Source of the DNA: the human T2T-CHM13v2.0 reference genome, Homo sapiens | Length of the DNA: 64,000 nt | Assembly: GCF_009914755.1 (NCBI RefSeq) | Contig: NC_060933.1 | Direction: 5' to 3' (one strand) | Shown: positions 38,241 to 61,078 of the stretch, in pieces | Layout of the letters: each line of letters opens with the position of its first letter | Numbering within the stretch: position 1 is the stretch's first letter | Made by a program: the position numbers and the translations under genes | The notes under the pieces: model-generated | Seen by the model: the letters and a program-made list of their open reading frames with translations, nothing else | Databases searched by the model: none | What the model was told of the DNA's origin: nothing

Positions 38241-38329
38241 CTACTTCTTTCCTTTCACGTCTTCTTTTACCTTCCAAATGACCAGATCCATGCAGGCTTT
38301 TGCATTTTCACTAGCATTGTGACCTCCAA
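38241..38329 (-). pseudogene. REXO6P: REXO1-like terminal pseudo-exon J (ExoIII motif, native stop; dead acceptor)
   Basis: (V)GGHNASENAKACMDLVIWKVKEDVKGKK* versus recalled REXO1 [29 protein letters not shown]. Acceptor reads ctAT instead of ctAG. Confidence 0.93.
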
Positions 38330-39950
38330 ATAGTACAGAATATTTTTTAAAGTGTTAGACATAAGACAACCATAATCTCTGATGTTACTTACATATTTCT
38401 CAAAATTAAGCCTTCAATTTATGTTTCTAACAAAGTTAACACTGCTCACCTATCGAAATATCATTAATACCTAATACAACCTCCAATGATTGCTTTATAA
38501 ATGTTTTACATGAATGTACTAGATTAACAAACATTGTTCTTTTTCTAGGTAGTCTTTCCTCTGTCACATTATCACTACCTTGCAATGATTGGCTAGCACA
38601 TCGGTACCCTCAGCTGTCTATCTCCTTCCCAGGGAGGTATGAGAAGAAAGTGGAGGGATCACCAAAGCAAGACATCTGGCTAGAAGCCAGAAATGTCGAA
38701 TGGTTAAAAAAAGAAAAAAAAAGTAATCTCTCTAAATAAAAGAACAACTTTAGGCACAAGTTTATATGGTTTTAAAAAGTAGATAAAATTTACCCAAAAC
38801 ATAAAGCTGTATAGTTCTGGTGAGAATAATAAATGATATCTGAGATTGGGTGAGAAAGTCGTATGGTCAATGCTTCTAAAATGGTGTAATAGTTTTCATT
38901 TCTTTACTTGTGTCTTACCCCAAGAAAGCTCTGATATTTTTTTAACTTTTAGAAGATTTTGTTTTAAACAGATTTGTTAACTGAAAGATTATGACCATGG
39001 TTCAAGATTATTTTCAACAGAAGGCCCTACAAATTCTATAATAGAATGTTATGGGAATTCTTTCTGAAATGAGTATTCTTAACAAAGCAGAGGATGTAAA
39101 AGATTCTCTGGAGAGGAGTGTAAGTTCATCATAAAATGAAATCATTTTGTATAATGAATGATATGATCAGAGGAACATCCATATCTCGAGAATCTTTAGA
39201 AACAAAGCAGCGTAATATAATTTTAACATATTTAAAGTTAACTTGCTCTACTGTTTGTACACAGGAAGGGCCTATATGGGCATACATGAATATACAGGTA
39301 TCCTCCATTCCACGCCAGACACTGGTGAAACTGTGCATATAGCAATGCCACGAACAGGTAATTGGTGGCTAGATTTGTTGTACTTGATTAACTTGTTTAA
39401 CATTGGGTATATTTCATCAGAAAAAGCAGAAATAGAAAAATTGGCAGCAAGATATACAAATCTGGTATAAATCAAGTTCACACATAATGACTGAATTTGA
39501 GCCATACCCCCCCCCCCCACCCCACACACACACAAATTTTCTCTTGGTGAGATAACCTGGACCCAATCAAATGTAGAAAGAACCTCTTTTGTTCTAATGA
39601 GAAGCACATATGAAAAGAGGTATACAGCAAGATTTAGAATGGAACAACAAAAGTTCTGTGCATGAATTCAAAGGCCAGACCCAATGATCTGACCACTGTT
39701 CTCAGTGAGATTGCTGTTCTGATTCATGAGGAACACCCAGGACTATACCAGGCAATGGCATATAATGGTTTTTTACACAAGCACAGGCAGATGCTTTAGG
39801 ATTCTCCACCAGAGGAGAGAACCCCCAGAAAAGAACCTGGTCTCCTACCTTAAGCATCTTAGACAGTAGACCTTTATGATGAACCTCACTGTTGTTCAGT
39901 CAAGTCAGACTGAGGGTCTTGACATCAGTCATGAGCAAATGGGCTCTTAC

Positions 39951-40071
39951 CATCATCCTGAACGATTCTCTGCAGGCAATCAGCCATTAGACTCCTAAGG
40001 GGTCTTTTGGGAGGCAAGCCAAGCTGATGAGGAAACATAACCGATATGTCCACAACTGAAGTGTGAATTAA
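39951..40071 (-). pseudogene. REXO6P: REXO1-like pseudo-exon I
   Basis: tgatag|TTA...GATG|gtaaga, 121 bp, open frame. [40 protein letters not shown] versus recalled REXO1 [40 protein letters not shown]. Confidence 0.95.
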
Positions 40072-40199
40072 CTATCAAATAAAAGTAAAAAAAAAAAACA
40101 CCTTTAACTTTCAAATAAAAGTAAAAACTCCAAAATAAGGATGCTGATAGCAGCAATAACTACTTAGGAACAAGGACTATGATACAAGAACAGGCAACA

Positions 40200-40420
40200 G
40201 TCGTGATGTGTCAGTTACTGGACTAAGTATATTGCATAGTTTATCCTGCTGTACTTTGCAGAGTAACCTAATGAGATAGGTATTTTTATTGTCCCTCTTC
40301 ATAGACAAGGAAATTGAAATTTTGAGAGGTTAAAAAACTTGCCTAAACTTACTTAGTAGAGCTGAAGGAAATAAAATCTAAACAGTCTAACTTCAGAGTC
40401 CACACTTTTCTACCATGAGG
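40200..40420 (-). mobile_element. MIR
   Basis: atagacaaggaaattgaaatt...gagaggttaaaaaacttgcctaa core. Confidence 0.6.
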
Positions 40421-40899
40421 AACCACCAGAGGGCAACATCAGGGCAGAGAGGTTCTCACAAGCACTCGGGGAGGCAGAGAACCAGGCTCTGCCCACATTG
40501 TGACTTGGCTGAGAGGGGCACACCCCAGTTCAGTACATGCCATATCGCATTTCAGTGGTTTGCTTATCTGCCTCTGGGGAGAAGGCACACACAACAGCTC
40601 AGGCCTATCTAGTTCCAAATCCCCCATGATTACACATGGAAGAAGCTGAATATGTTTTTACTGAAGTTTGGTGATGTGGAAAATATTATTGATAGAATAG
40701 ATATGGAGGGAGAGGGGTCAGATAATCTAAGGGCTCAGGAAGTCAGGTACGAGTTTGGATTCCTTATTAGGAGAACTGTACTTTGAAAGAAGCATTTAAA
40801 GATTAGCCTGAGAACAAGAGTAATTTGAAGACTAAGAAATGAGGAGTCATAAATTTAAAATTTAGTATCAACTATGCCTTGCCTGACATAACACTTTAA

Positions 40900-41400
40900 A
40901 TGATTATTCAGTGTGCCAGCCACCATGCTCGGCACTGGTTCCTACCTGCAGGGTAGTCTGTAGGGAGCACAGAGCACAAGAAGAGGAGAAATGATCAAGA
41001 AGCTGCACGGGAGAAGGAGGGAGTGGGGAACTCCCGCAGCAGGTACCACTTTGGGGCATCCTAGCACAGTGTCCCTACTCTCAGGGATTTTCAGAGTAGT
41101 GGGGAAAGGTGAAACAGGGGTTGGAACAGACAAAACTCAGCTTGGGGGACAAGGGAAGTTTCCATAAGATGACTCTAAAAGAAGTTGATGGTGGAAATAG
41201 AGAAAAGTATGAAAATCCATGAGTCTTCTGGGTGGAAGAAACAGAACGATTCCAAGGAATGAGGAAATGCAATGTTTTGAAATTTTCTGGTCTGGAGGAC
41301 ATGCAGGATAGAATGGTTCCTGAGAAATCAGGGGCAGGAAAGTCATAGTGAGAGGTGCAGTTTGGGAGATGATGTTTTTGAGGGGACAAGAGGATACCCC
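40900..41400 (-). mobile_element. L2 fragment
   Basis: gtgtgccagccaccatgctcggcactgg followed by a purine-rich L2-like body. Confidence 0.45.
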
Positions 41401-41698
41401 TTTTTTCTTATGAAAAACTCATGTCCCCAACTCTCTTTTCTTACAGTTTGGCAAGGTCCAGAGGCAAGTACATTCCAGTCTCATTTGTCACATGCAGAGA
41501 CAACATTACTCTTTGAAACAAATATCCTATACTTTGGATACCAGCTTCATCAAGAAAAAGGCTGATATTCATCTATGAAAATTAAATGGCCTTACTCATA
41601 TTTTTGCACTGAAGAAGAGCTAGCCCTTCTCTGCATGAAGGCTAGTCCTAGGGGTGGCTGAGACAAACACTCAGCTAAAGGTCCCGAAAGTTCTAGAG

Positions 41699-41889
41699 CT
41701 GTGTTGTGCAATGTGGTAGCCACAAGCTTTATGGGACTGTTGAAATTCAAATTAAAATTAAACAAAATTAGAAATGCATTTCCTCAGTCACATTAGACAT
41801 CTTTCAAGTGCTCAACAGCCAAGTGTGCCTAGTGTCTACCATATTGGGTAGTGCAGATGTAGAATAGAAAGTTCTTTTGGATAACACCG
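41699..41889. mobile_element. MER3-like hAT-Charlie MITE
   Basis: tgtgcaatgtggtagccac...ttcctcagtcacattagacatctttcaagtgctcaacagcc...ttggataacac. Confidence 0.7.
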
Positions 41890-41897
41890 TTCTACGA

Positions 41898-42106
41898 TGG
41901 GATGGGTAAACTTTTTTCTAAAAGTGCCAGATTTAATATTTTCAGCTTGCAAGTCACATGATCTGTCACAACTACTCAACAATATCATTAAAGTGTGAAA
42001 GCAGCCATACACAATCTGTAAATGAGTGGGTATGATGGCTTCATTCCAAGAAAAATATTTAGAAAAACAGGTGGCCAGCCCATGGGCCGTAGTTCACTGG
42101 CCCAGG
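41898..42106. mobile_element. MER58A-like hAT-Charlie MITE
   Basis: ggtaaacttttttctaaaag...caactactcaac...aaagcagccatacacaatctgtaaatgagtggg. Confidence 0.75.
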
Positions 42107-42573
42107 TCTAGAACGTAGAGCAAAACACACACATTTTAACCTGGAGTATATTAAGGAAAGGTTTTCATGTCTATTATGCCAAGAAAATGAACCTAACATT
42201 TAATTTTGAGCCTACCTGACTTAATGTGGAAAAAGACCCCTAAGTATGTGAATAAAATAATCAGTTAATAAATTTAGTCTTGTCTATTTGATTATTAAGG
42301 AAAGTCTGTGAAAACAATGGTTTGGGTTTTATCATAATTGATGAGGGACTATTCTTTATGATCTTGATTAGCCAGATGATGTGAACTGTCTGACACGGCT
42401 TCTAGTTTGTGGTAGTTAGACTGTATCATCAGCAAAGACAGCGATTATTGTCTTCTTGGTTAACAGGGCAAATCAAGTATCAATTATAACATAATGATAA
42501 TGACTGCTATCTTAACACATGTGGTTTTATACATTTTTTTTGTAAAAAAATATGTTGGCTTCTAATTCTTTAC

Positions 42574-42733
42574 CTAAGGGTATAGACTATGTTCAAAGTG
42601 ATGTCCGATTAATACATCACTTTAGTGACACATTAGTACAGTGTCAGCACTAAACAGGTTCAACAAGATAGCTTGGACATCACGGGTTGATGTTTTAATG
42701 TTCTTCAAGTCATCTTCTGCCACACCAGAAAAC
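42574..42733 (-). pseudogene. REXO6P: REXO1-like pseudo-exon H (ExoII motif; 24-bp insertion, two stops)
   Basis: ggtag|GTTT...CTTAG|gtaaag, 160 bp. FSGVAEDDLKNIKTSTRDVQAILLNLFSADTV[LMCH*SDV]LIGHHFEHSLYP* versus recalled REXO1 [46 protein letters not shown]. Confidence 0.93.
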
Positions 42734-43740
42734 CTACCCCAAGATGACATATAATAGCATATAAAAATTTAACTCCATGAATTTTATCAGTTATAGTTAG
42801 AACACATTATTGACCCAATGTGACAAACAGCTGAATGAAACAAAGATCTTATCTGCATGACTGTCAACTACCTCTCTGCTAGTTTACATTGGTAAACTAG
42901 GAAAATTTATCATTTGGTTCCATAATGCAAGGCTGAGGGGAGAATACATTATTACAAGTTCAGAGTTCCTGTTGAATTCTGATCTTTGCATAATCTGAAT
43001 TTTATTCAATACCATTTGTTAAGTATCCTGTCTCCCAGTAACATAAGCCTAAAGACAAAATATGGGTAGCATGGTCGAACAGATGGAGCCCTGGGCAGAT
43101 TCTAGAAAACCTGGGTTTGAACTATGCTTTGATCTGCCATTTACTTACTATATGTTATTTTCAGGTAGTTATTTAATCTTCTGGTCTCAGTCTGCTCTTC
43201 TGTAAAGTAGGGATAATTACCAACCTACTAGTTTATGAGGACCCAATGAAAATGCATGCAGGAAAGTGACTACTCTAGTGGCTTTCATAAAGCACACACT
43301 AAAATAAATATTTAGAACTCAGCTACTGCTAAGGGAGAAAAATACTGCACAAGTATTTTTAACTGAAACTATATGGTGATATTGTCTTTTGTAAGGAGCA
43401 AAAGATACCTGGCTCCATTACTTGGCTTAGTTAGGGAATATGACACATAGTTAATAAGACATTTAGATCAAGAAGAAGTTAGCATAGATGGAGTGCATGG
43501 GTTTGTTTAAAAATATTTTCTAAAGAATGTAATGCATCAAATGCATTTGAATGTTTTCAAGATTCAAAGGTTTTTGTTTTGTTTTGTTTTGTTTTTTAAC
43601 TAATGTCAGCCCTTCAGTTCTCATTTTGTCATTATGAATATCAATAGTTACCTATTTCCTGATTCGTTCCAAAAAAAGGAATTAGGGAAGATTCTATTAA
43701 ACTCATGGAAGAATAAGAACAAATAAGGGTATAATAGATG

Positions 43741-46363
43741 GGAGGGCTGGCAAGATGGCTGAACAGGAACAGCTCCAGTCTGCAGCTCCCAGTGAGATCG
43801 ACGCAGAAGGCGGGTGATTTCTGCATTTCCAACTGAGGTATCCGGTTCACCTCACTGGGACTGGTTGGAGAGTGGGTGTAGCCCACGGAGGATGAGCTGA
43901 AGCAGGGTGGGGCATCGCCTCACCTGGGAAGTGAAAGGGGTTGGGGGATTTCCCTCCCCTAGCCAAGGGAAGCCATGAGAGACTGCACCTGGAGGAACGG
44001 TGCACTCCAGCCGAGATACTGTGCTTTTCCCATAGTCTTTGCAACCGGCAGACCCGGAGATTCCCTCTGGTGCCTACCCTACCAGGGCCCTGGGTTTCAA
44101 GCACAAAACTGGGTGGCTGGGCGGACACCAAGCTAGATGCAGGAGTTTTTTTTTTTTTTTTTTTTTTTTTCCATACCCCAGTGGCACCTGGAATGCCAGC
44201 GAGACAGAACCATTCACTCCCCTGGAAAGGGGGCTGAAGCCAGGGAGCCAAGTGGTCTGGCTTGGCGGGTCCCACCCCCATGGAGTCCAGCAAGCTAAGA
44301 TCCACTGGCTTGAAATTCTCACTGACAACACAGCAGTCTAAGGTCGACCTGGGATGCTCAAGCTTGGTGCGGGGAGGGGCGTCCACCATTACTGAGGCTT
44401 GAGTATGGGGTTTCCCCCTCACGGGGTAAACAAACCCACTGGGAAGTTCAAACTGGGCGGAGCCAACCGCAGTTCAACAAGGCCGCTGCGGCCAGACTGC
44501 CTCTCTAGATTCCTCCTCTCTCAGCAGATCATCTCTGAAAAAAAGGCAGCAGCCCCAGTTAGGACTTATAGATAAAACCCCCATCTCCCTGGGACAGAGC
44601 ACCTAGTGTAAGGAGTGGCTGTGGGCGCAGCTTCAGCCGATTTAAATGTCCCTGCCTGACAGCCCTGAAGAGAGCAGCGGATCTCTCAGCACAGCATTTG
44701 AGGGACAGACTGCCTCCTCAAGTGGGTCCCTGGCCCCCATGTATCCTGACTGGGAGACACCTCACAGCAGGGTTCGACAGACACTTCATAAAAAAGAGCT
44801 CCAGCTGGCATCTGGCAGGTGCCCCTCTGGGGTGAAGCTTCCAGAGGAAGGAACAGGCAGAAATCTTTGCTGTTCTGCAGCCTCCGCTAGTGATACCCAG
44901 GCAAAAAGGGTCTGGAGCGGACCTCCAGCAAACTCCAGCAGACCTGCAGCAGAGGGTCCGGACTTTTAGATGGAAAACTAACAAACAGAAAGGAATAGTA
45001 TCAACATCAACAAAAAGGACATCCAAAGACACCATTTGAAGGTCACCAACATCAAAGGCCAAACAAAGGTAGATAAATCCACAAAGATGGGGAGAAACCA
45101 GCGCAAAAAGGCTGAAAATTCCAAAAACCAGAATGCCTCTTCTCCTCCAAAGGATCACAACTCCTCACCAGCAAGGGAACAAAACTGTGGGTAATAAAAA
45201 ACTCCTCTGAGCTAAAGGAGCATGTTCTAACCCAACGCAAGAAAGCTAAGAACCTTGAAAAAAGGTTAGACGAATTGCTAACTAGAATAACCAGTTTAGA
45301 GAAGAACATAAATGACCTGATGGAGCTGAGAAATGCACAGTACGAGAAGTTTGTGATGCATACACAAGTATCAATAGCTGAATCGACCAAGCGGAAGAAA
45401 GGATATCAAAGATCGAAGATCAACTCAATGAAAGTGAGAAGATTAGAGAAAAAAGAGTGAAAAGAAACAAACAAAGCCTCCAAGAAATATGGGACTATGT
45501 GAAAAGACCAAATGTATGTTTGATTGGTGTACCTGAAAGAGATGAGAGGAATAGAAACAAGTTGGAAAACTCTTCAGGATATTATCCAGGAGAACTTCCT
45601 CAACCTAGCAAGGCAACTCAACATTTAAATTGAGGAAATACAGAGAACACCACAAAGATACTCCTCGATAAGAGCAACCCCAATACACGTAACTGTTAGA
45701 TTCACCAAGGTTGAAATGAAAGAAAAAATGTTAAGGGCAGCCAGAGGGAAAGGTTGGGTTACCCACAAAGGGAAGCCGATCAGACTAACAGCAGATCTCT
45801 CTGTAGAAACCCTACAAGCCAGAAGAGAGTGGGGGACAAAATTCAACATTCTTAAAGGGAAGAATTTTCAACTTGAGAAGATTAGAGAAAAAAGAGTGAA
45901 AAGAAACAAGTGGCAGAATTTCCTGTTCAGCCAAACTAAGCTTCATAAGCGAAGGAGAAATAAATTCCTTTACAGACAAGCAAATGCTGAGAGATTTTGC
46001 CACCACCAGGCCTGCCTTACAAGAGCTTCCAAAGGAAGCGCTAAACATGGAAAGGAACAACTGGTACCGGCCACTGAAAAAACATACCAAATTCTAAAGA
46101 CCACTGATGCTATTAAAAAACCGCATCAACTACTGGGAAAAATAACCAGCTAGCATCACAATGACAGGATCAAATTAACACATAACAATATTAACCTTAA
46201 ATGTAAATGGGCCAAATGCCCCAATTAAAAGACACAGACTGGCAAATCAGATAAGGAGTCAAGACCCATCAGTGTGCTGTATTCAGGAGACCCATCTCGC
46301 ATGCAAAGACACACATAGGCTCAAAATAAAGGGATGGAGGAATATTTACCAAACAAATGGAAG

Positions 46364-46401
<38 letters not shown>

Positions 46402-49400
46402 CAGGGATTGCAATCCTAGTCTCTGATAAAACAGACTTTAAACCAACAAAGATCAAAAGAAACAAAGAAGGGCACTGCATGATGGTAAAGGGATCAATGC
46501 ACCAAGAACTGCTATCTATCCTAAATATATACGCACCCAATACAGGAGCACCCAGATTCATAAAGCAAGTTTCTAGAGATCTATAGAGAGACTTAGACTC
46601 CCACATAATAATAGTGGGAGACTTTAACACTCCGTTGTCAATATTAGACAGATCAACGAGACAAAATTAACAAGGATATTCAGGACTTCATCTCGGCTCT
46701 GGACCAAGTGCACCTAATAGACATCTATAGAACTCTCCACACCATATCAACAGAATATACATTATTCTCAGCACCTCATCGCACTTATTCTAAAATCTAC
46801 CACATAATTGAAAGTAAAAGAATGCAAATCATAACAGTCTCTCAGACCACAGTGCAATCAAGTTAGAATTCAGGATTAAGAAACTCACTCAAAACCCTAC
46901 AACTACATGGAAACTGAACAACCTGCTCCTGAATGACTACTGGGTAAATAACAAAATGAAAACAGAAATAAAGATTTTCTTTGAAACCAATGAGAACAAA
47001 GATACAATGTACCAGAATCTCTAGGACACATTTGACATATTTAAAGCAGTGTGTAGAGGGAAATTTATAGCAGTAAATGCCCACAAGAGAAAGCAGGAAA
47101 GATCTAAAAATCAACAACCTAACATCACAATTAAAAGAACTAGAGAAGCAACAGCAAACAAATTCAGAAGCTAGCAGCAGACAAGAAATAACTAAGATCA
47201 GAGCAGAACTGAAGGACCTAGAGACACGAAAAACCCTTCAAAAAATTCAATGAATCCAGTAGGTGTTTTGAAAAGATAAAAAAAATAGACCACTAGCCAG
47301 ACTAATAAAGAAGAGAGAAGAATGAAATAGACAAAAAAAAGTTGATAAAGGGGTTATCACCACCGATCCCAGAGAAATACAGACTACCATCAGAGAATAC
47401 TATAAACACCTCTACGCAAATAAACTGAAAAAACTAGAAGAAATGGATATATTCCTGGACACATACCCCCTCCCAAGTCTAAACCAGGAAGAAGTCAAAT
47501 CCCTGAATAGACCAATAACAAGTTTTGAAATTGAGGCAGTAATTTACAGCCTACCAACCAAAAAAAGTCCAGGACCAGATGGATTCACAACCAGATTCTA
47601 CCAGAGGTACAAAGAGGAGCTGGTACCATTCCTTCTGAAACTATTCCAAACAATAGAAAAAGAGGGAATCCTCCCTAACTCATTTTACAAGGCCAACATC
47701 CTCTGATACCCAAACCTGGCAGAGACACAACAAAAAAAGAAAATTTCAGGCCAATATCCCTGATGAACATCAATGCAAAAATCCTCCATAAAATACTGGC
47801 AAACCAAATCCAACAGCACACCAAAAAGCTTATCCACCATCATCAAGTGGGCTTCATCCCTGGGATGGAAGGCTGGTTCAATATATGCAAATCAATAATC
47901 GTAATCCATCACATGAACAGAACCAATGAAAAAAACCACATGATTATCTCAATAGATGCAGAAAAGGCCTTCGACAAAATTCAAGACCCCTTCATGCAAA
48001 AAGCTCTCAATAAACTAGGTATCGATGGAACTTATCTCAAAATAATAAGAGCTATTTATGACAAACCCACAGCCAACATACTGAATGCGCAAAAACTGGA
48101 AGCATTCCCTTTAAAAACCGGCACAAGACAAGGACACCCTCTCTCACCCCTCCTATTCAACATAGTATTGGAAGTTCTGGACAGGGCAATCAGGCAAGAG
48201 AAAGATATAAAGTGTATTCAAATAGGAGGAGAGGAAGTCAAATTGTCTCTGTTTGCAGATGATATGGTCATGTATTTAGAAAACCCCATTGTCTCAGCCC
48301 AAAATCTCCTTAAGCTGATAAGCAACTTCAGCAAAGTCTCAGGATACAAAATCAACGTGCAAAAATCACAAGCATTCTTTTTTTTTTTTTTTTTTTTTGA
48401 GACGGAGTCTCGCTCTGTCGCCCAGGCTGGAGTGCAGTGGCGCGATCTCGGCTCACTGCCATTCTTATACACCAATAACAGACAAACAGAGAGCCAAATC
48501 ATGAGTGACATCCCATTCACAATAGCTACAAAGAGAATAAAATACCTGGGAATCCAACTTACAAGGGATGTGAAGGACCTCTTCAAGGAAAACTACAAAC
48601 CACTGCTTAAGGAAATAAGAGAGGACACAAACAAATGGAAAAACATTCCATGCTCATGAATAGGAAGAATCAATGTCGTGAAAATGGCCATATTGTCCAA
48701 AGTAATTTATAGATTCAATGCTATCCCCATCAAGCTACCACTGACTTTCTTCACAGAATTGGAAAAAACTACTTTAACGTTCATATGGAACCAAAAAAAG
48801 AGCCTGCATAGCCAAGACAATCCTGGGCAAGGAGAACAAAGGTGGAGGCATCACGCTACCTGACTTCAAACTATACTACAAGGCTACAGTAACAAAACAG
48901 CATGGTACTGGTACCAAAACAGATATATAGACCAATGGAACAGGACAGAGGTCTCAGGAATAACACCACACATCTACAACCATCTGTTCTTTGACAAACC
49001 TGACACAAACAATGGGGAAAAGATTCCCTATTTAATAAATGGTGTTGGGAAAACTGGCTAGCCATATGCAGAAAACTGAAATTGGACCCCTTTCCTTACA
49101 CCTTATACAAAAATCAACTCGAGATGGATCAAAGACTTAAACGTAAGACCTAGGACTATAAAAATCCTGGAAGAAAACCTGGGCAATACCATTGAGGACA
49201 TAGGCATGGGCAAAGACTTCATGTCTAAAACACCAGAAGCAATGGCAACAAAAGCGAAAATAGACAACTGGGATCTAATTAAACTAAAGAGCTTCTGCAC
49301 AGCAAAATAAACTATCATCAGTATGAAGAGGCAACCTGCAGAATGGGAGAAAATTTTTGCAATCTATCCATCTGACAAAGGGCTAATATCCAGAATCTAC

Positions 49401-50264
49401 AAGGACTTCAACAAATTTACAAGAAAAAAAAAACCACCAAAAAATGGGCAAAGGATATGAACAGACACTTCTCAAAAGAGGACATTTATGCAGCCAACAG
49501 ACATATGAAAAAATGCTCATCATCACTGGTCATTAGAGAAATGCAAATCAAAACCACAATGAGATACCATCTCACGCCACTTAGAATGGTGATCATTAAA
49601 AAGTCAGGAAACAATAGATGCTGGAGAAGATGTGGAGAAATAGGAATGCTTTTACACTGTTGGTGGGAGTGTAAACTAGTTCAACCATTGTGGAAGACAG
49701 TATTGCAATTCCTCAAGGATCTAGAACCAGAAATACCATTTGACCCACCAATCCCATTACTGGGTATATACCCAAAGGATTATAAATCATTCTACTATAA
49801 AAACACTTGCACACTTATGTTTGTTGTGGCACTGTTCACAATAGCGAAGACTTGGAACCAACCCAAATATCCACCAATGATCGACTGGATAAAGAAAATG
49901 TGGCACATATACACCATGGAATAAAAAATGATGAGTTCATGTCCTTTGCAGGGACATGGATAAAGCTGGAAACCATCATTCTCAGGAAACTATCACAAGA
50001 ACAGAAAACCAAACGCCGCATGTTCTCACTCATAAGTGGGATATGAACAATGAGAACACATGGACACAGGGAGGGGAAAAACACACATCAGGGCCTGTTG
50101 GTGGGTGGGGAGCTAGGGGAGGGATAACATTAGGAGAAATACCTCATGTAAGTGACAGGTTGACGGGTGCAGCAAACCACCATGGCACGTGTATACCTTT
50201 GTAACAAAACTGCACGTTCTGCACATGTACCCCAGAATTTAAAGTATAATAACAATAATAAAAA
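43741..50264 (+). mobile_element. Full-length L1 (L1PA7/8-like), disrupted, no clear TSD
   Basis: 5'UTR gggctggcaagatggctgaacagg, ORF1/ORF2 remnants, 3'UTR and A-rich tail. Confidence 0.95.
48380..48459 (-). mobile_element. 5'-truncated young Alu (AluY-like) inside L1 ORF2
   Basis: T-run plus gagacggagtctcgctctgtcgcccaggctggagtgcagtggcgcgatctcggctcactgc. TSD cattctt at 48373-48379 and 48460-48466. Confidence 0.92.
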
Positions 50265-50972
50265 GATCTTAAGCTGGAAAATGGAATACTGTCTTCTATC
50301 TTTAGTATAAGGAAATGCCACAAATCTTCTTTCCAAATATACAATGGGGAATAAAAACTTATCTTATGTTTTATTAAAGATGACTATTCATATGTTTGAC
50401 ATGTACAAAGCACTTTCCTATATTTTAGCATATCTGATTTTCATAGTCACTATGGGGTTGTTACTGACTCCATAATTTACAGCTTAGAGCATCTAAGAGA
50501 CTTGCTCAGAAGGTCACAGCTAGTAGAACTTTCCAGGTCTTGTAATTCCAAATTCTGTTTTCCCCACTTTTTAGCACTGATTCTTATGTAAAGGAACATA
50601 AGTCCCTATAAAGATTTTATTGTCTCTAGAAATGATTTTGCCAAAAGCATTAAAGCTTTTATGCTGATTATTTTTCACTCACATAATTTCAGCAATTTGA
50701 TGAGTAGAATTACCACTATTTGTATATTTTAGAAATTTGACCGATAAAAAGACACTCAGGACAGTTCCTGGCTCCATCGCTCTAGGTGCGTGAACTTAAC
50801 CAATTCACTAACTCTTCTCAGCTTTAATGGCTTCATCTGAAAATTTGTGAACAACCAATGCAGCACTGTGTCGTCAAGGAATAAGGCCCTGGAAACCCTT
50901 CTACCAGGTAGACTGCTACACAATCATTCAGTCATAATAACCACAGTAAAGTAAAATATAAAACCAACATAC

Positions 50973-51080
50973 CATCTCACAACTTACTGCAAACACACGG
51001 TGATTACCATCAGCAGGTGGGAACTTGACAAAAGTCTTCACAAAGCCCTTTAGGTTTTCTTTGTGGTCATGAACATGAAG
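50973..51080 (-). pseudogene. REXO6P: REXO1-like pseudo-exon F (ExoI motif)
   Basis: tttcag|CTT...GAGATG|gtatgt, 108 bp. LHVHDHKENLKGFVKTFVKFPPADGNHRVFAVSCEM versus recalled REXO1 QHVQDGRKERLEGFVKTFEK...GIYALDCEM. Confidence 0.92.
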
Positions 51081-51255: not shown

Positions 51256-51329
51256 CTTGGCGACCTGACACCGGGGCGATCCAAGGAAACCTCCACAACA
51301 GCCGTATTGAGATTCAAAGCCACTGAGGA
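51256..51329 (-). pseudogene. REXO6P: REXO1-like pseudo-exon E
   Basis: ttacag|TC...GCCAAG|gtagga, 74 bp. (V)LSGFESQYGCCGGFLGSPRCQVAK versus recalled REXO1 [25 protein letters not shown]. Confidence 0.92.
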
Positions 51330-54290: not shown

Positions 54291-54390
54291 TTTTTCTTTA
54301 TTGGACTGTACTGAACATTGAACTTAATACTTCATTCCACTTCTCTGAACAGCTGGCTTGTCAAACCAAACAGAACTACCAAATACTTGC

Positions 54391-54504
54391 CTTTATGACT
54401 CAACACTCCGCCAAATTGGTAGTTACATTCTTCTACCCTGCTGTGTCAACCTGAGGGAGTCACACCATATATTTTTCCACATCGACAACAGAGCTTCTTA
54501 GGTG
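54391..54504 (-). pseudogene. REXO6P: REXO1-like pseudo-exon D (Cys-rich; stop and dead acceptor)
   Basis: 114 bp. PKKLCCRCGKIYGVTPSG*HSRVEECNYQFGGVLSHK versus recalled REXO1 [36 protein letters not shown]. Acceptor is tttcGG and donor is GCaagt. Confidence 0.9.
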
Positions 54505-55009
54505 CCGAAACAAAACATGAAGTAGGATTATTCCAGATGAGATGGGAGAGAAAAGGTAAATGAACCAATGTGGAGACTTGCCTTTGCATGCTTGATCCTG
54601 TGGGAAGCACATACCCAGTGTGATTACAGAGTAACAGGAGAAGTTACAGGATCACTCAAGGGAGAATTTGCAAGTGGCTTGCTTATTGCACCAGGGCTGC
54701 TGCTGCTTAAACAGGCACCCCCTCCCCGCTACCTAGCTCCAAAGTCAGCCCAGTGCCAGCCAATTGTAGTTTTAGTGTTACAACTTGACTGTAACCAACT
54801 TGACCAGTCAACTACTCTAGTACATAATAGCTCCCTGAAATAGGAGCCATGTCTTCCTTATGATTTTATCCCTTCAAGAGTCTCCCACAATAAACTGTAC
54901 ATTTATTATTAAGTTATTAAGAGTATATCTGCGTTTTTCACTAGACCCATTCATGAATATTTGTTTTATTAATAAACCTCAGACTGGTTCTGATAGTGAT
55001 AATAATGGT

Positions 55010-55830
55010 GATAACAGCAACTCTTATTTGAATATCCATGATGAGATTAGATTATGAGGCAGGCTCTGTGTCAAGCACTCTATATACATTATTTTAATGG
55101 ATTCTCACAACAACCTGATGGGGTAGTTATCATTATCCTCATATTCAGAATGAGAAAACAGAGGGTAGGAGGGGTTAAATGACTTATCTAGCATCCAGAC
55201 CTTGAATAACACTTCACTGAGAAAACAGCCTTTAGGAAGCCTGACTTCCCCCTTCAGAGTCCATATTCTTACCTGCTAAGTGTATTGCCTTCCATTGAGG
55301 GGATGTGAAAAAATAAAACAAAACGAGAAAAGCTAATAGTGAAGATAATCCCAAGGGAGAAGTCCTAAAGATGCAGAAGATGACAAATATTTTCTAGTCA
55401 CTGTAGAATATTTGTATAACTGCATTTCATACTCTGATCATCAACCTAAAGTTTGACAGCTGTGATGTTTAGCATTCTCTCTCAGTGGGGATGAACATAT
55501 TAACTAATTATGCCTAGTATTTGGAGAACATGCAAAATAAGACTAATTATAAATCTTTGTATAATAATTCACAGTGAGAATTTATAGTTTTCAAAACATG
55601 GCATTGTATATGTAAATGAATAGTGATGAAGAGTAAGAGCTCAGGAGTTGGACACCTTGGCTTCAAATCCTGGCTCTCCCACTTATTTTCTGTGACCTTT
55701 GACAAGTTATTTGAATTCTCTGAACATCAGTTTCCTCATTTGTGTAATCAGGGGAATAACAATGCTTACCTGAAATGGTTGTTTTGAGGACTTAATAAAG
55801 TAGATCACTTAGATAAAATTAAGCACCTAG
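55010..55830. mobile_element. MIR fragments (about 55010-55270 minus, about 55620-55830 plus)
   Basis: MIR cores (ctcacaacaacctgatggggtag; ttcaaatcctggctctcccactta...cagtttcctcatttgt). Confidence 0.65.
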
Positions 55831-56055: not shown

Positions 56056-56194
56056 CATCATTTCCAAGTTTTTTTCACGCCTAGGTTTAAAAGAATACTT
56101 CCTGGTTTGTTGGGGTATGGTCTAGGGTAGTTATTTTTGTGTAGCTGTTCCTCAGTTAGCAAGTAGTTTTTAAGATGTCTATAGAGAATAACTC
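56056..56194 (-). pseudogene. REXO6P: REXO1-like pseudo-exon C (frameshifted)
   Basis: catag|GA...GATG|gtaagt, 139 bp. GVILYRHLKNYLLTEEQLHKNNYPRPYPNKPGS versus recalled REXO1 [33 protein letters not shown]. A net +1 nt near the A7 run breaks phase. Confidence 0.92.
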
Positions 56195-57269
56195 CTATGA
56201 GCACTAAGAAAAAAAGAAAAGCTATTCCATAAAATTTATGTAGCATTATCTTTCTTTACATTGTGGTAAGGTTAGAGTTTACCAACCCTTTCAGATCTGA
56301 AATGCTAGGGTTCTGATTAAGTAAGGTAGTGGCCTAAAAGAATTCTAGGTCTTCATATCCATCATCCAGCAACACCAACAAAACCGACATTGTTCCGTAT
56401 ACCATGTGACATCATACGCTTTGGGTGAGAAAAGGGAAGAATCATATCAGTAATAGCATATAGTAAGCATAGCACTTTGGTTTAAACTTTACATTAACTT
56501 AGAAAGGCAACTGCATTGATTTCATTTTTACAGATGAGGAAAATGAGGCTCAGAAAAATAAAGACACATGCCCAAGGTTACACAGCACAACTGACACACA
56601 AACCCAGGCCTTCTGGTTCCAAACTATGCGGTTATCCTTAATATTCAGACAAGGTTACAACAAACGCTTATAATCAAGGACCACAAAGGGAAACACGACA
56701 AGTCTCTCATGGCAAAAGAGTTCAAGTTCAGGTTCCATTTCCAACATCACTAACCCAGACCAAGAGCCCCTCATTTTTATGGATTCTTTTAGAATTTTAT
56801 CTATTTTCTTATTTAAAACTCTAACAGAATTTGCTAGATACTCTTTGGTAAACGCTTTGGCAAAAGGAAAAATTATTTTGTGAGAAGTATTAGGAGATTC
56901 AAAAGGATCTATTTTGTTTTCAGTCTCATATGTAAGGCTTTATTAGAGGAGAAGCACTACCATTTGCTTTTATTCAAAATGTAGCCAAAGTCTAATAACT
57001 CCTTTTCTGTAGCTTCTTGCTCCTTGGAGTTTGTTATAAATTCAGGGTTTGAGATCCCTCCCAGACCTACTGAACCAGATTCTGCATTTTAACAAGAGTC
57101 CCGTGTAATTCAAACCCATGTAAAGTTTGACATTTGAGAAGCATTGGTCTTGCTGACTGGACATACGTTAACCAAAAAAGAAAATTAACACATGCTAATC
57201 AAAAAAGCAAAATAGTTGAGAATTCAATCCAAATATAGCTTAAATGTAAGTTCTTTTCCCTTATTTATA

Positions 57270-60981: not shown

Positions 60982-61078
60982 CTTGATCTCTTAGCTTCTT
61001 AAGATAATTTACTGCTATGTTCACATACATATTTCTCCTGCTACACCTTTCATATATTGCCTTTTTTTCTATTTTAGC
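60982..61078 (-). pseudogene. REXO6P: REXO1-like pseudo-exon A
   Basis: cctag|GCT...CAAG|gtaatt, 97 bp. AKIEKKAIYERCSRRNMYVNIAVNYLKKLRDQ versus recalled REXO1 [31 protein letters not shown]. Confidence 0.88.

What the first reader, a model, noticed from the sequence alone, without database searches (positions are those of the whole stretch)
38304..50984. All three catalytic Asp of the DEDDh site are replaced: likely a pseudo-nuclease before gene death
Seen: ExoI DCE reads SCE (AGT, 50984-50982). ExoII GHSLESD reads GHHFEHS. ExoIII HxxxED reads HNASEN (AAT, 38306-38304). The ExoI Glu, the general-base His and surrounding structural residues are kept. Knowledge: these Asp residues bind the two catalytic metals in DEDDh nucleases, and Asp-to-Ser needs at least 2 substitutions per codon. 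Inference: hitting exactly these three residues, twice by double change, is unlikely under short neutral decay. The functional ancestor may have been a catalytically dead RNA-binding or scaffold REXO1 homologue. If intact orthologues exist in other mammals, this would be an undescribed pseudo-enzyme.
Basis: partly seen in the sequence, partly recalled or inferred. Interest (0 to 1): 0.85.

Follow-up and report, generated by a model that had tools for sequence, protein, structure and literature searches.

The report
Dead-site exonuclease gene, later lost
The human pseudogene REXO6P descends from an exonuclease-like gene whose three metal-binding aspartates were already replaced in the common ancestor of placental mammals, and many placentals still keep that gene intact, so it looks like an undescribed pseudo-enzyme that the human lineage later lost.

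Summary
On the minus strand REXO6P reads AVSCEM (AGT 50984-50982), GHHFEHS (42606-42586, in an exon RefSeq does not annotate) and GHNASEN (AAT 38306-38304). That is Ser-Glu-Ser-His-Asn where DEDDh nucleases have Asp-Glu-Asp-His-Asp.

- **Placental mammals:** 26 protein models cover at least one of the three Asp sites, and none has Asp there. Eighteen models from 16 species cover all five sites, mostly as N-E-S-H-N. They include mouse lemur, galago, colugo, tree shrew, rabbit, cat, dog, pig, cattle, pangolin and sloth.
- **Other vertebrates:** opossum, platypus, echidna and 70 further non-placental REXO6-like proteins (73 of 99) keep D-E-D-H-D. None of the 99 lacks all three Asp.

So the site was lost on the placental stem, before the human gene broke. 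The dead domain is the best-conserved part of the placental protein: 0.87 mean pairwise identity against 0.63 for the N-terminal half. This points to selection, not decay.

Human REXO6P is a unitary pseudogene with at least 10 stops, 4 frameshifts and one lost exon. No searchable paper names REXO6.

The parts
60982..61078 (-). REXO6P exon in the RefSeq model. It is open in frame and encodes the end of the KIX-like part (AKIEKK...KKLRDQ).
   Evidence: translation; 75% identical to mouse lemur REXO6 residues 580-611 and 85% to cat.
56070..56204 (-). Ancestral coding exon that is not in the RefSeq model (VLIGVILYRHLKNYLLTEEQL...). It has an AG acceptor at 56205-56204.
   Evidence: 67% identical to lemur and cat REXO6. 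(sequence). An in-frame TGA at 56060-56058 lies before the first GT downstream; the exon end is inferred.
54391..54597 (-). RefSeq exon. Its 3' part (54508-54392) encodes the first half of the Cys/His-rich (CHORD-like) segment, KKLCCRCGKIYGVTPSG*HSRVEEC. The in-frame stop TGA is at 54448-54446, where orthologues have Lys or Arg.
   Evidence: for the orthologue residues.
51256..51329 (-). RefSeq exon encoding the second half of the Cys/His-rich segment (ESQYGCCGGFLGSPRCQVAK).
50973..51080 (-). ExoI exon, ending AVSCEM followed by a GT donor. Ser is AGT at 50984-50982 in place of the first catalytic Asp. Glu is GAG at 50978-50976 and is kept.
   Evidence: placental orthologues have N, S or H here; all others have D.
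45716..48656 (+). LINE-1 remnant inside the intron between the ExoI and ExoII exons. It holds an ORF1-like piece (45716-46150) and a reverse-transcriptase ORF (47763-48656). The exon that should lie in this intron (CYTAKGLE...DYNTR in orthologues) cannot be found.
   Evidence: Pfam RVT_1 E 8.9e-36; Transposase_22 and Tnp_22_dsRBD; masked repeats fill most of 43.7-50.3 kb; best peptide scores of 27-29 are no better than the plus-strand control or 20 shuffles (28-34).
42574..42735 (-). ExoII exon, not in the RefSeq model. It reads RFSGVAEDDLKN...SADTVL[MCH*SDVL]IGHHFEHSLYP*. Ser is AGT at 42588-42586 in place of the ExoII Asp. There are 24 extra bases (42633-42610) with TAA at 42624-42622, and the final codon is TAG at 42576-42574. 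A GT donor follows at 42573-42572.
   Evidence: Orthologues read GHSFEHSLYALK.
39951..40071 (-). RefSeq exon, open in frame ([40 protein letters not shown]). It is the part of the DEDDh-like domain between ExoII and ExoIII.
   Evidence: 60% identical to GOR. (73-76% to lemur and cat REXO6).
38241..38323 (-). Last coding exon with ExoIII, (G)HNASENAKACMDLVIWKVKEDVKGKK*. His is CAC at 38321-38319 and is kept. Asn is AAT at 38306-38304 in place of the ExoIII Asp. The stop TAG at 38243-38241 is at the orthologues' position.

Best explanation
REXO6 is an old vertebrate paralogue of REXO1 with the same layout: a KIX-like part, a Cys/His-rich CHORD-like part and a C-terminal DEDDh domain.

On the stem of placental mammals, after the split from marsupials, all three metal-binding Asp of the DEDDh site were replaced. 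ExoI became Asn, ExoII became Ser and ExoIII became Asn, and two residues were deleted just before the ExoIII His. A two-metal exonuclease cannot work without these carboxylates, so the placental protein was most likely catalytically dead. This step is inferred from established DEDD chemistry and was not assayed.

The gene nevertheless stayed open and colinear in many placental orders, and the dead domain is its most conserved part. It was therefore kept for a non-catalytic job, probably binding (conjecture).

In the lineage leading to humans it then lost constraint and became the transcribed unitary pseudogene REXO6P (formerly LINC00032), lying between TEK and EQTN. The S-E-S-H-N read in the window is the inherited pseudo-enzyme state plus one later change at ExoI (Asn to Ser). 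It is not the product of the pseudogene's own decay.
For: **Orthologues found.** One search returned 426 hits, 120 listed. One search showed ten placental proteins 72-77% identical to the 11 human pieces. One search returned 710 hits, 120 listed, and added more, one of them named 'RNA exonuclease 6 (putative)' in dog by UniRef.

**Orthology.**
- In the tree of 69 rows, REXO1 is a clade (100*). Placental REXO6 (99*) joins opossum (96*) and then the monotremes (91).
- Gar has both paralogues.
- The human pieces fall inside placental REXO6, within Euarchontoglires (95*).
- Synteny holds. The human order is TEK, REXO6P, EQTN, MOB3B. Read-through gene models in tree shrew, orca and pygmy sperm whale join Mob1 and/or Afaf (EQTN) domains to the REXO6 part.

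**Catalytic residues.** One search covered 83 chosen rows and one search covered all 215 fetched proteins with a domain hit.
- Placental REXO6: no Asp at any covered Asp site in 26 rows. Eighteen rows cover all five sites.
- Non-placental REXO6-like: 73 of 99 are D-E-D-H-D, 13 are partial with no departure, and 13 have one or two departures. None lacks all three Asp.
- REXO1-like: 77 of 86 are D-E-D-H-D.

**Positions checked against solved nucleases**.

**Constraint after the loss.**
- Eight full-length placental proteins show mean pairwise identity of 0.63 (N-terminal half), 0.76 (KIX-like), 0.83 (CHORD-like) and 0.87 (DEDDh-like). In the DEDDh-like part 106 of 163 columns are invariant.
- Mouse lemur REXO6 aligns over 100% of its length with turtle REXO6.
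- The human end branch is 0.23, against about 0.12 for each strepsirrhine.

**Human copy broken.**
Against: No activity, binding or expression data exist for any REXO6 protein, so 'dead' and 'functional' are both inferences.

I had no orthologue DNA, so dN/dS could not be computed. Constraint is argued only from open frames and uneven protein conservation.

The N-terminal half changes about as fast in the intact strepsirrhine genes as in the human pseudogene. One search counts 51 human-only changes, against 47 on the mouse lemur lineage and 70 on the galago lineage, at 365 sites. Over the whole protein the counts are 95 against 75 and 97 at 685 sites. Overall constraint is therefore weak.

Several placental models are truncated or lack part of the domain (slow loris, rhinoceros, some whales). 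No rodent, bat, afrotherian or anthropoid REXO6 protein was among the listed hits. The gene therefore seems to have been lost or damaged repeatedly.

The proteins are gene predictions, which can step around lesions.

The marsupial state rests on one species (opossum). The trees used the quick search with SH-aLRT support only.
Confidence: 0.85

Rival explanations
1. The three Asp were lost by neutral decay in the human lineage after the gene had already died. They have no earlier history.
For: The human copy is heavily decayed. By uniform decay alone, three named sites all differing has a chance of about 3-5%, which is not negligible.
Against: The same three sites lack Asp in every placental orthologue that covers them: 26 rows from lineages that split from the human lineage at or near the base of placentals. 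The human ExoII Ser and ExoIII Asn are identical to the commonest placental state. The two-residue deletion before the ExoIII His is also shared.
Confidence: 0.02
2. REXO6 died as a gene on the placental stem. All the placental 'orthologues' are decaying pseudogenes that annotation pipelines have stitched into proteins.
For: Truncated or partial models occur in slow loris, rhinoceros and whales. The gene is not seen in many orders. The N-terminal half evolves fast. Some models are read-through fusions with neighbouring genes.
Against: Full-length models of about 870-1030 residues, colinear with each other and with turtle REXO6, exist in primates, rabbit, carnivores and bovids; of the eight compared five are RefSeq models, two UniRef-only and one a genome project's. 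None of the RefSeq names carries the 'LOW QUALITY PROTEIN' tag that other hits carry. Conservation is strongly uneven (0.87 in the dead domain against 0.63 N-terminally), which neutral decay does not produce. The human copy, neutral for only part of that time, has at least 10 stops and 4 frameshifts.
Confidence: 0.06
3. Placental REXO6 is still a nuclease that works with a non-canonical site built on the kept Glu and His.
For: Glu is kept in 17 of the 18 complete placental rows. His is kept at the aligned column in 14 of 18 and sits one position away in the 4 canid rows. Such retention over a long time hints at some use for them.
Against: The four carboxylates hold the two metals in DEDD nucleases, and proteins of this fold that lack them (Exu, PML PXL) showed no activity when tested (PMC13659232, passages read). 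Pig also has Gln for the Glu, and canids have a changed His-to-site spacing. The replacement residues vary between species (N/S/H, S/N/C, N/S/K).
Confidence: 0.07

Closest known systems
REXO1 (EloA-BP1) of vertebrates and Rex3 of yeast
   Same: The architecture is shared. Pfam PF15870 (EloA-BP1) matches all seven proteins tested: five REXO6 proteins from five groups (two placental), one gar REXO6 and one alligator REXO1. A Cys/His-rich segment and a C-terminal DEDDh domain are present. PMC12129344 (passages read) describes this family as KIX + CHORD + DEDDh. Exon breaks fall at the same places in human REXO1 and REXO6P: after ...CEM, after ...ALK and before GH.
   Different: REXO6 is a separate clade present from ray-finned fish to mammals and lies at a different locus (9p21, next to TEK, EQTN and MOB3B). 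REXO1-like proteins keep D-E-D-H-D in 77 of 86 cases. Placental REXO6 has lost all three Asp.
GOR / REXO1L copies on human chromosome 8
   Same: They share a homologous C-terminal half (43-60% identity to the human pieces; 49-53% to lemur REXO6).
   Different: GOR is an intronless open frame that nests inside REXO1 in the tree and keeps D-E-D-H-D. REXO6P has introns, is single-copy and is not derived from GOR.
DEDD-fold pseudo-exonucleases: Drosophila Exuperantia and the PXL domain of human PML-1
   Same: They have an exonuclease fold with the metal-binding acidic residues gone, kept as a nucleic-acid-binding module with no nuclease activity (PMC13659232, abstract and passages read).
   Different: Those two carry an added SAM-like subdomain and are only about 10-15% identical to active nucleases. 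Placental REXO6 is a recent, clear-cut case. It is still close in sequence to active relatives (E 4.8e-21 to SDN1), has active-looking orthologues in marsupials and monotremes, and carries KIX-like and CHORD-like partner domains. Binding by REXO6 is untested.
Solved DEDDh RNases: Arabidopsis SDN1 (5z9x), human ISG20 (1wlj), ISG20L2 (7yw5)
   Same: These are the nearest solved structures by sequence to the REXO6 exonuclease-like domain. Turtle REXO6 scores E 2.5e-26, 6.9e-15 and 7.4e-14. Cat REXO6 scores 4.8e-21, 2.4e-8 and 9.7e-10.
   Different: Those enzymes have the full catalytic set, apart from the deposited 7yw5 chain, which reads Ala at the ExoIII site in the alignment. Cat REXO6 has N, S and N at the aligned Asp sites.
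EXD1 and yeast Pop2 (recalled, not checked in any call)
   Same: As I recall, both are DEDD-type domains with incomplete catalytic sets that act mainly as partners in complexes.
   Different: They belong to different subfamilies. This is a lead from memory only.

Membership tests
DEDDh 3'-5' exonucleases (RNase T / ExoIII-type, Pfam PF00929) | ExoI Asp (first metal ligand) | tested here: not met
   The human codon is AGT = Ser at 50984-50982. Placental orthologues have N, S or H. All 18 REXO1/GOR rows and opossum, platypus and echidna have D.
DEDDh 3'-5' exonucleases (RNase T / ExoIII-type, Pfam PF00929) | ExoI Glu | tested here: met
   GAG at 50978-50976. It is kept in 17 of 18 complete placental rows; pig has Gln.
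DEDDh 3'-5' exonucleases (RNase T / ExoIII-type, Pfam PF00929) | ExoII Asp | tested here: not met
   AGT = Ser at 42588-42586. Placental orthologues have S, N or C.
DEDDh 3'-5' exonucleases (RNase T / ExoIII-type, Pfam PF00929) | ExoIII His followed five residues later by Asp | tested here: not met
   His is present (CAC 38321-38319), but the Asp position is AAT = Asn at 38306-38304. Placental orthologues have N, S or K.
DEDDh 3'-5' exonucleases (RNase T / ExoIII-type, Pfam PF00929) | Homology of the domain to solved members | tested here: met
   Cat REXO6 matches SDN1 5z9x at E 4.8e-21 over residues 771-924, and also ISG20L2 and ISG20. The Pfam RNase_T model itself did not reach E 0.01 on any of the six REXO6 proteins scanned and matched alligator REXO1 only weakly.
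DEDDh 3'-5' exonucleases (RNase T / ExoIII-type, Pfam PF00929) | Metal-dependent 3'-5' exonuclease activity | not testable with these tools
   This needs a biochemical assay of an intact orthologue.
REXO1/Rex3 subfamily (KIX + CHORD + C-terminal DEDDh) | EloA-BP1 region (PF15870) upstream of the exonuclease domain | tested here: met
   PF15870 matches at E 2e-36 to 3e-44 in lemur, cat, opossum, platypus and turtle REXO6, and at 2.4e-32 in gar. The human exons at 64490-64651 (outside the window) and at 60982-61078 and 56070-56204 are homologous to it.
REXO1/Rex3 subfamily (KIX + CHORD + C-terminal DEDDh) | Cys/His-rich segment before the exonuclease domain | tested here: met
   CCRCG...H...C.YH.G...CC...C...H.H is conserved across REXO1 and REXO6 in the alignment. 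The human remnants are at 54508-54392 and 51327-51256. I did not test that it is a CHORD fold; the name comes from PMC12129344.
REXO1/Rex3 subfamily (KIX + CHORD + C-terminal DEDDh) | Being REXO1 itself (orthology) | tested here: not met
   REXO1 forms its own clade (100*), and REXO6 sequences lie outside it. Gar, turtles, crocodilians and frogs have one of each.
Unitary (unprocessed) pseudogene | Disabling lesions in a gene that keeps its introns | tested here: met
   In the window there is a TGA at 54448-54446, a TAA at 42624-42622, a TAG at 42576-42574, a 24-base insertion and one exon not detectable. Upstream there are 7 further stops and 4 frame changes. The exon-intron layout is kept.
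Unitary (unprocessed) pseudogene | Intact orthologues elsewhere, at the same locus | tested here: met
   Searches show the full-length placental proteins. Searches show the shared neighbours EQTN and MOB3B.
Unitary (unprocessed) pseudogene | No working copy elsewhere in the human genome | tested here: met
   The 1157-base N-terminal exon matches only itself and a 141-base stretch on chromosome 2 at 82% identity. The protein search found only the GOR copies at 49-53% identity; that search used a stricter filter, and closed regions are not shown.
Pseudo-exonucleases of the DEDD fold (Exu, PML PXL) | Catalytic acidic residues absent | tested here: met
   Three of the four acidic residues are replaced in all complete placental rows.
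Pseudo-exonucleases of the DEDD fold (Exu, PML PXL) | Fold retained | tested here: inconclusive
   Only sequence homology and high conservation of the domain are available.
Pseudo-exonucleases of the DEDD fold (Exu, PML PXL) | No nuclease activity but nucleic-acid binding, with a biological role | not testable with these tools
   This needs assays, and no paper on REXO6 was found.

The most novel reading that the evidence does not exclude
Placental REXO6 is a true, selected pseudo-exonuclease. It is a KIX/CHORD protein whose dead DEDDh domain was kept for roughly the whole of placental history as a binding module, for RNA 3' ends or for partners shared with REXO1. Catalysis may be dispensable for REXO6 more widely: single catalytic residues have also been replaced independently in several birds, two geckos, another lizard (Sceloporus), a toad, sturgeon and paddlefish, and tarpon, while the gene stays open. 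Humans, and apparently rodents and others, then lost it altogether.
Probability: 0.45. Interest if true: 0.75.

Novelty: new member of a known kind. Interest (0 to 1): 0.62.

Why it matters
The finding turns a locus that 23 papers list only as the lncRNA LINC00032 into a dated example of how an enzyme becomes a pseudo-enzyme and then dies.
- Catalysis was intact in fish, amphibians, reptiles, monotremes and a marsupial.
- All three metal ligands were lost on one branch, the placental stem.
- The dead domain was then conserved over a long period.
- The gene was lost repeatedly afterwards, including in the human lineage.

Active-looking and dead orthologues are both available as natural proteins, so the question 'what does a dead DEDDh domain do?' becomes directly testable. 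It may also shed light on REXO1, which is itself uncharacterised (PMC12129344, passage read).

For human biology the direct weight is small, because the human copy is broken.

Tried and rejected
1. **Alignment A1**. This was the first query alignment, GOR plus 11 human pieces. MAFFT scattered the short pieces across hundreds of columns, which would have spoiled the profile, so I rejected it. I tested piece sets offline and used the clean set A2.

2. **Exon between ExoI and ExoII.** I looked for it with tblastn and with a Smith-Waterman scan using the REXO1 and mouse lemur peptides. Nothing scored above the plus-strand control or the shuffles. I cannot say how it was lost. An L1 remnant fills much of the intron.

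3. **The 24 extra bases in the ExoII exon.** I considered that they might be a tandem duplication. TRF found nothing, so I describe them only as an insertion.

4. **Rfam** on 36000-58000 gave no family at gathering score.

No fold search was therefore run, and retention of the fold is argued from sequence only.

6. **Whole-genome protein search with lemur REXO6**. It was swamped by the GOR copies and ran with a stricter filter. I replaced it with a DNA search using the REXO6-specific N-terminal exon.

7. **Dating the human loss.** I made only relative counts. An absolute date would need neutral branch lengths that I hold only from memory, so I give none.

8. **The third protein search** was left unused. 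It could only have added short fragments (under about 300 residues) from lineages without full models, and the verdict does not depend on them.

Tables S1 and S4 of PMC12129344 list structural relatives of Rex1 and Rex3 and might include REXO6-type proteins; I could not see them.

**Rows left out.** The tree and motif table used 85 hand-picked proteins out of 217 fetched, and two of the 85 gave no domain hit. One search then tabulated all 215 with a domain hit. It classified them by which of two green-turtle references (REXO6-like P0137, REXO1-like P0208) they matched better.

Full report
**What is in the window.** REXO6P lies on the minus strand.
- ExoI reads A-V-S-C-E-M, then a GT donor. Ser is AGT at 50984-50982 and Glu is GAG at 50978-50976.
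- ExoIII reads H-N-A-S-E-N. His is CAC at 38321-38319 and Asn is AAT at 38306-38304. The frame ends ...KGKK-TAG at 38243-38241.
Its exon, about 42735-42574, is not in the RefSeq transcript NR_026679.1. That transcript splices the ExoI exon straight to 40071.

The human site reads S-E-S-H-N where the family has D-E-D-H-D.

**The rest of the gene.** I used the intronless GOR open frame from chromosome 8 (L001) and later mouse lemur REXO6 as probes. With these the human locus can be followed colinearly from residue 15 to residue 933 of the lemur protein.

In the window the pieces are:
- 61078-60983
- 56204-56070 (not annotated)
- 54508-54392
- 51327-51256
- 51080-50973
- 42735-42574 (not annotated)
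- 40071-39951
- 38323-38241

The two RefSeq exons at 55273-55364 and 55770-55826 match nothing in the protein. Exon breaks fall where they do in human REXO1 on chromosome 19. REXO6P is therefore an intron-bearing gene remnant and not a retrocopy.

It is badly broken.
- In the window there is a TGA at 54448-54446, 24 extra bases with a TAA at 42624-42622, and a TAG at 42576-42574 in a stretch one codon short.
- The exon that should encode CYTAKGLE...DYNTR is not detectable. The intron there is mostly repeats and holds an L1 remnant.
- Upstream of the window the large N-terminal exon and the next ones carry seven more stops and four frame changes.

**Is three out of three more than chance?** The human DEDDh pieces are 64-69% identical to relatives with a complete site. 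Three named sites all differing then has a chance of about 3-5% under uniform decay. That is suggestive but not decisive, so orthologues were needed.

**Finding orthologues.** The protein search takes only candidates of 0.55-1.75 times the query length and no read-through of stops. I therefore aligned a 539-residue stretch of GOR with six stop-free human pieces (A2) and searched with that profile.
- The search gave 426 hits at E ≤ 1e-5 among 1468 candidates, with 120 listed. A further 6532 candidates from unnamed sources were left out.
- I scored the 120 against the 11 human pieces. Ten proteins were 72-77% identical: pig, leopard cat, grey seal, mouse lemur, galago, raccoon dog (two models), yak, cattle and sloth.
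- Turtles, lizards, crocodile and birds followed at 57-67%, and REXO1 fragments came lower.

A second search with mouse lemur REXO6 over its whole length gave 710 hits at E ≤ 1e-10, with 120 listed and 6342 left out.
- It added panda, dog, colugo, rabbit, goat, pangolin, tree shrew, slow loris, rhinoceros and several whales.
- One dog entry is named 'RNA exonuclease 6 (putative)' by UniRef.
- It also added opossum, many reptiles and amphibians, lungfish, coelacanth and ray-finned fish.
- No rodent, bat, afrotherian, tarsier or anthropoid REXO6 appeared among the listed rows of either search. This is weak evidence of absence.

**Orthology.** A tree of 69 C-terminal regions was built with IQ-TREE (quick search, SH-aLRT support).
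- REXO1 forms one clade (100*), with GOR inside it.
- Outside that clade are the REXO6 sequences of ray-finned fish, lobe-fins, amphibians, squamates, turtles, crocodilians and birds.
- There is also a mammalian group: monotremes, then opossum (96*), then placentals (99*).
- Gar, turtles, crocodilians and a frog each have one gene of each kind.

The ten stop-free human pieces, placed in one row, fall inside placental REXO6 within Euarchontoglires (95*), next to the strepsirrhines, colugo, tree shrew and rabbit.

The locus agrees. In the human genome the order is TEK, REXO6P, EQTN, MOB3B. Read-through gene models in tree shrew, orca and pygmy sperm whale join Mob1 and/or Afaf (EQTN) domains to the REXO6 part, in that order. 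The N-terminal exon has no second copy in the human genome.

**The decisive table.** At the five catalytic columns (83 rows, all 215 proteins with a domain hit):

| Group | Rows | State |
|---|---|---|
| REXO1/GOR (chosen rows) | 18 | 18 of 18 D-E-D-H-D |
| REXO1-like (all rows) | 86 | 77 D-E-D-H-D; 3 partial; 6 with a single departure, five of them (four bats, one monkey) shown to be REXO1-like, the sixth a remora protein |
| Placental REXO6 | 30 | 26 cover at least one Asp site; none has Asp there |
| Other REXO6-like | 99 | 73 D-E-D-H-D (including opossum, platypus, echidna); 13 partial without departure; 13 with one or two departures; none lacks all three Asp |

The 18 placental rows that cover all five columns (16 species) read:
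- N-E-S-H-N (7 rows)
- N-E-S-N-N (4 canid rows, where an extra residue shifts the His by one)
- S-E-S-H-N (yak and cattle, the same as human)
- N-Q-S-H-N (pig)
- N-E-S-H-S (seal)
- N-E-N-H-N (panda)
- N-E-C-H-K (rabbit)
- H-E-N-H-N (pygmy sperm whale)

Placentals also share a two-residue deletion just before the ExoIII His. An alignment of cat REXO6 to solved nucleases puts its N, S and N opposite the catalytic Asp of SDN1 and ISG20, and of ISG20L2 at ExoI and ExoII (its deposited chain reads Ala at ExoIII).

The simplest history is that all three Asp were replaced on the placental stem, after the split from marsupials. The human Ser at ExoI is then one further change from Asn, as also happened in bovids (inferred).

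**Was the dead protein kept by selection?** I had no orthologue DNA, so this is argued from proteins.

Evidence for selection:
- Models of about 870-1030 residues exist in several orders, five of the eight compared being RefSeq models. They are colinear with each other and with turtle REXO6, and the RefSeq names carry no 'LOW QUALITY' tag.
- Conservation is strongly uneven among eight full-length placentals. Mean pairwise identity is 0.63 in the N-terminal half, 0.76 in the KIX-like part, 0.83 in the Cys/His-rich part and 0.87 in the DEDDh-like domain. In that domain 106 of 163 columns are invariant.
- The human end branch is about twice that of either strepsirrhine in the C-terminal region: 0.23 against about 0.12. 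The parsimony counts there are 37 human-only changes against 26 and 24 at 274 sites.

Evidence against strong constraint:
- Over the whole protein the human lineage has 95 changes, against 75 (mouse lemur lineage) and 97 (galago lineage) at 685 sites.
- In the N-terminal half the counts are 51 against 47 and 70.
- Several placental models are truncated, and many orders show no model at all.

My reading is that the C-terminal half, and above all the dead domain, is under moderate purifying selection. The N-terminal half is under weak constraint, and the gene has been lost repeatedly.

**How it most likely works.**
- Shown: the architecture is that of REXO1/Rex3. PF15870 matches the six REXO6 proteins and the one alligator REXO1 scanned, and the Cys/His pattern is conserved. 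The family is described as KIX + CHORD + DEDDh in PMC12129344 (passages read).
- Inferred: without three of its four carboxylates the placental domain cannot hold the two metals, so it does not cut.
- Conjecture: its conservation, with Glu and His kept, fits a binding role, either for RNA 3' ends or for partners of the polymerase II machinery that REXO1 is said to meet.

Precedents exist. [quoted passage not shown] In humans nothing of this remains except a spliced transcript.

**Is it known?** Full-text searches for REXO6, REXO6P and 'zgc 152968' (the name UniRef gives one gar REXO6 entry) found no paper. The 23 papers that mention LINC00032, C9orf14 or NCRNA00032 list it among lncRNAs or in copy-number tables; I saw search listings and abstract openings only. 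The gene name exists in databases (RefSeq 'REXO6P'; UniRef 'RNA exonuclease 6 (putative)' for dog), but I found no description of the lost active site. About 1.7 million PubMed Central articles and all supplements were not searchable.

**Verdict.** This is a new member of a known kind, the DEDD-fold pseudo-exonucleases, with an unusually clear history. The human locus itself is an ordinary, old unitary pseudogene.

Noticed in passing
window 56070-56204 and 42574-42735; also chr9:27283771-27283884 and 27287319-27287402 (L004 1771-1884 and 5319-5402): Four stretches homologous to REXO6 coding exons are not part of the RefSeq transcript. Conversely, the RefSeq exons at window 55273-55364 and 55770-55826 have no match in any REXO6 protein. 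The transcript is therefore a mix of ancestral and newly recruited exons, and it skips the ExoII exon.
   Followed up: partly
Proteins P0205, P0098, P0101, P0117, P0216, P0114 (birds), P0169, P0159, P0177 (lizards), P0187 (Bombina), P0206/P0207 (paddlefish, sturgeon), P0213 (tarpon): Thirteen of 99 non-placental REXO6-like proteins have one or two catalytic residues replaced. The ExoII Asp is replaced in five neognath birds by four different residues. ExoI reads A..Q in sturgeon and paddlefish. His is Arg in tarpon and Sceloporus. This hints that the active site of REXO6 is under loose constraint well beyond placentals.
   Followed up: partly
Proteins P0136 (tree shrew), P0132 and P0135 (orca, Pacific white-sided dolphin), P0204 (pygmy sperm whale): Public gene models fuse MOB3B and/or EQTN domains to REXO6. 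These are probably read-through mis-annotations of three neighbouring same-strand genes. They are useful here as evidence of synteny.
   Followed up: yes
window 45716-48656, plus strand: An L1 remnant (ORF1-like and reverse-transcriptase ORFs) lies in the intron from which the REXO6 exon is missing. RefSeq also marks two H3K27ac hESC enhancer elements at 43709-44712 in the same intron.
   Followed up: partly
window 54389-54390 (donor of exon 54391-54597): The RefSeq exon 54391-54597 uses a GC rather than a GT donor.
   Followed up: no
chr2:102915403-102915544 (G000:C2): A 141-base stretch is 82% identical to part of the REXO6P N-terminal exon (query bases 913-1053). It is the only other match in the human genome. 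Its nature was not examined.
   Followed up: no
chr9:27287547-27287693 (L004 5547-5693), a REXO6P RefSeq exon outside the window: The translation of this exon looked Alu-like to me (recalled resemblance, no test). It has no counterpart in REXO6 proteins.
   Followed up: no
Proteins P0093 and P0119 (platypus, echidna): Monotreme REXO6 keeps D-E-D-H-D but sits on a very long stem branch (0.39-0.47). It has Ser for the Cys between the ExoI Asp and Glu (AVDSEM). REXO6 was therefore already evolving fast in early mammals.
   Followed up: no
chr8:86.08-86.95 Mb (G000:C8): At least 49 GOR/REXO1L copies with open frames of about 600-693 residues were hit by the lemur REXO6 query. This is a large tandem family that swamps any protein search for REXO relatives in the human genome.
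   Followed up: no
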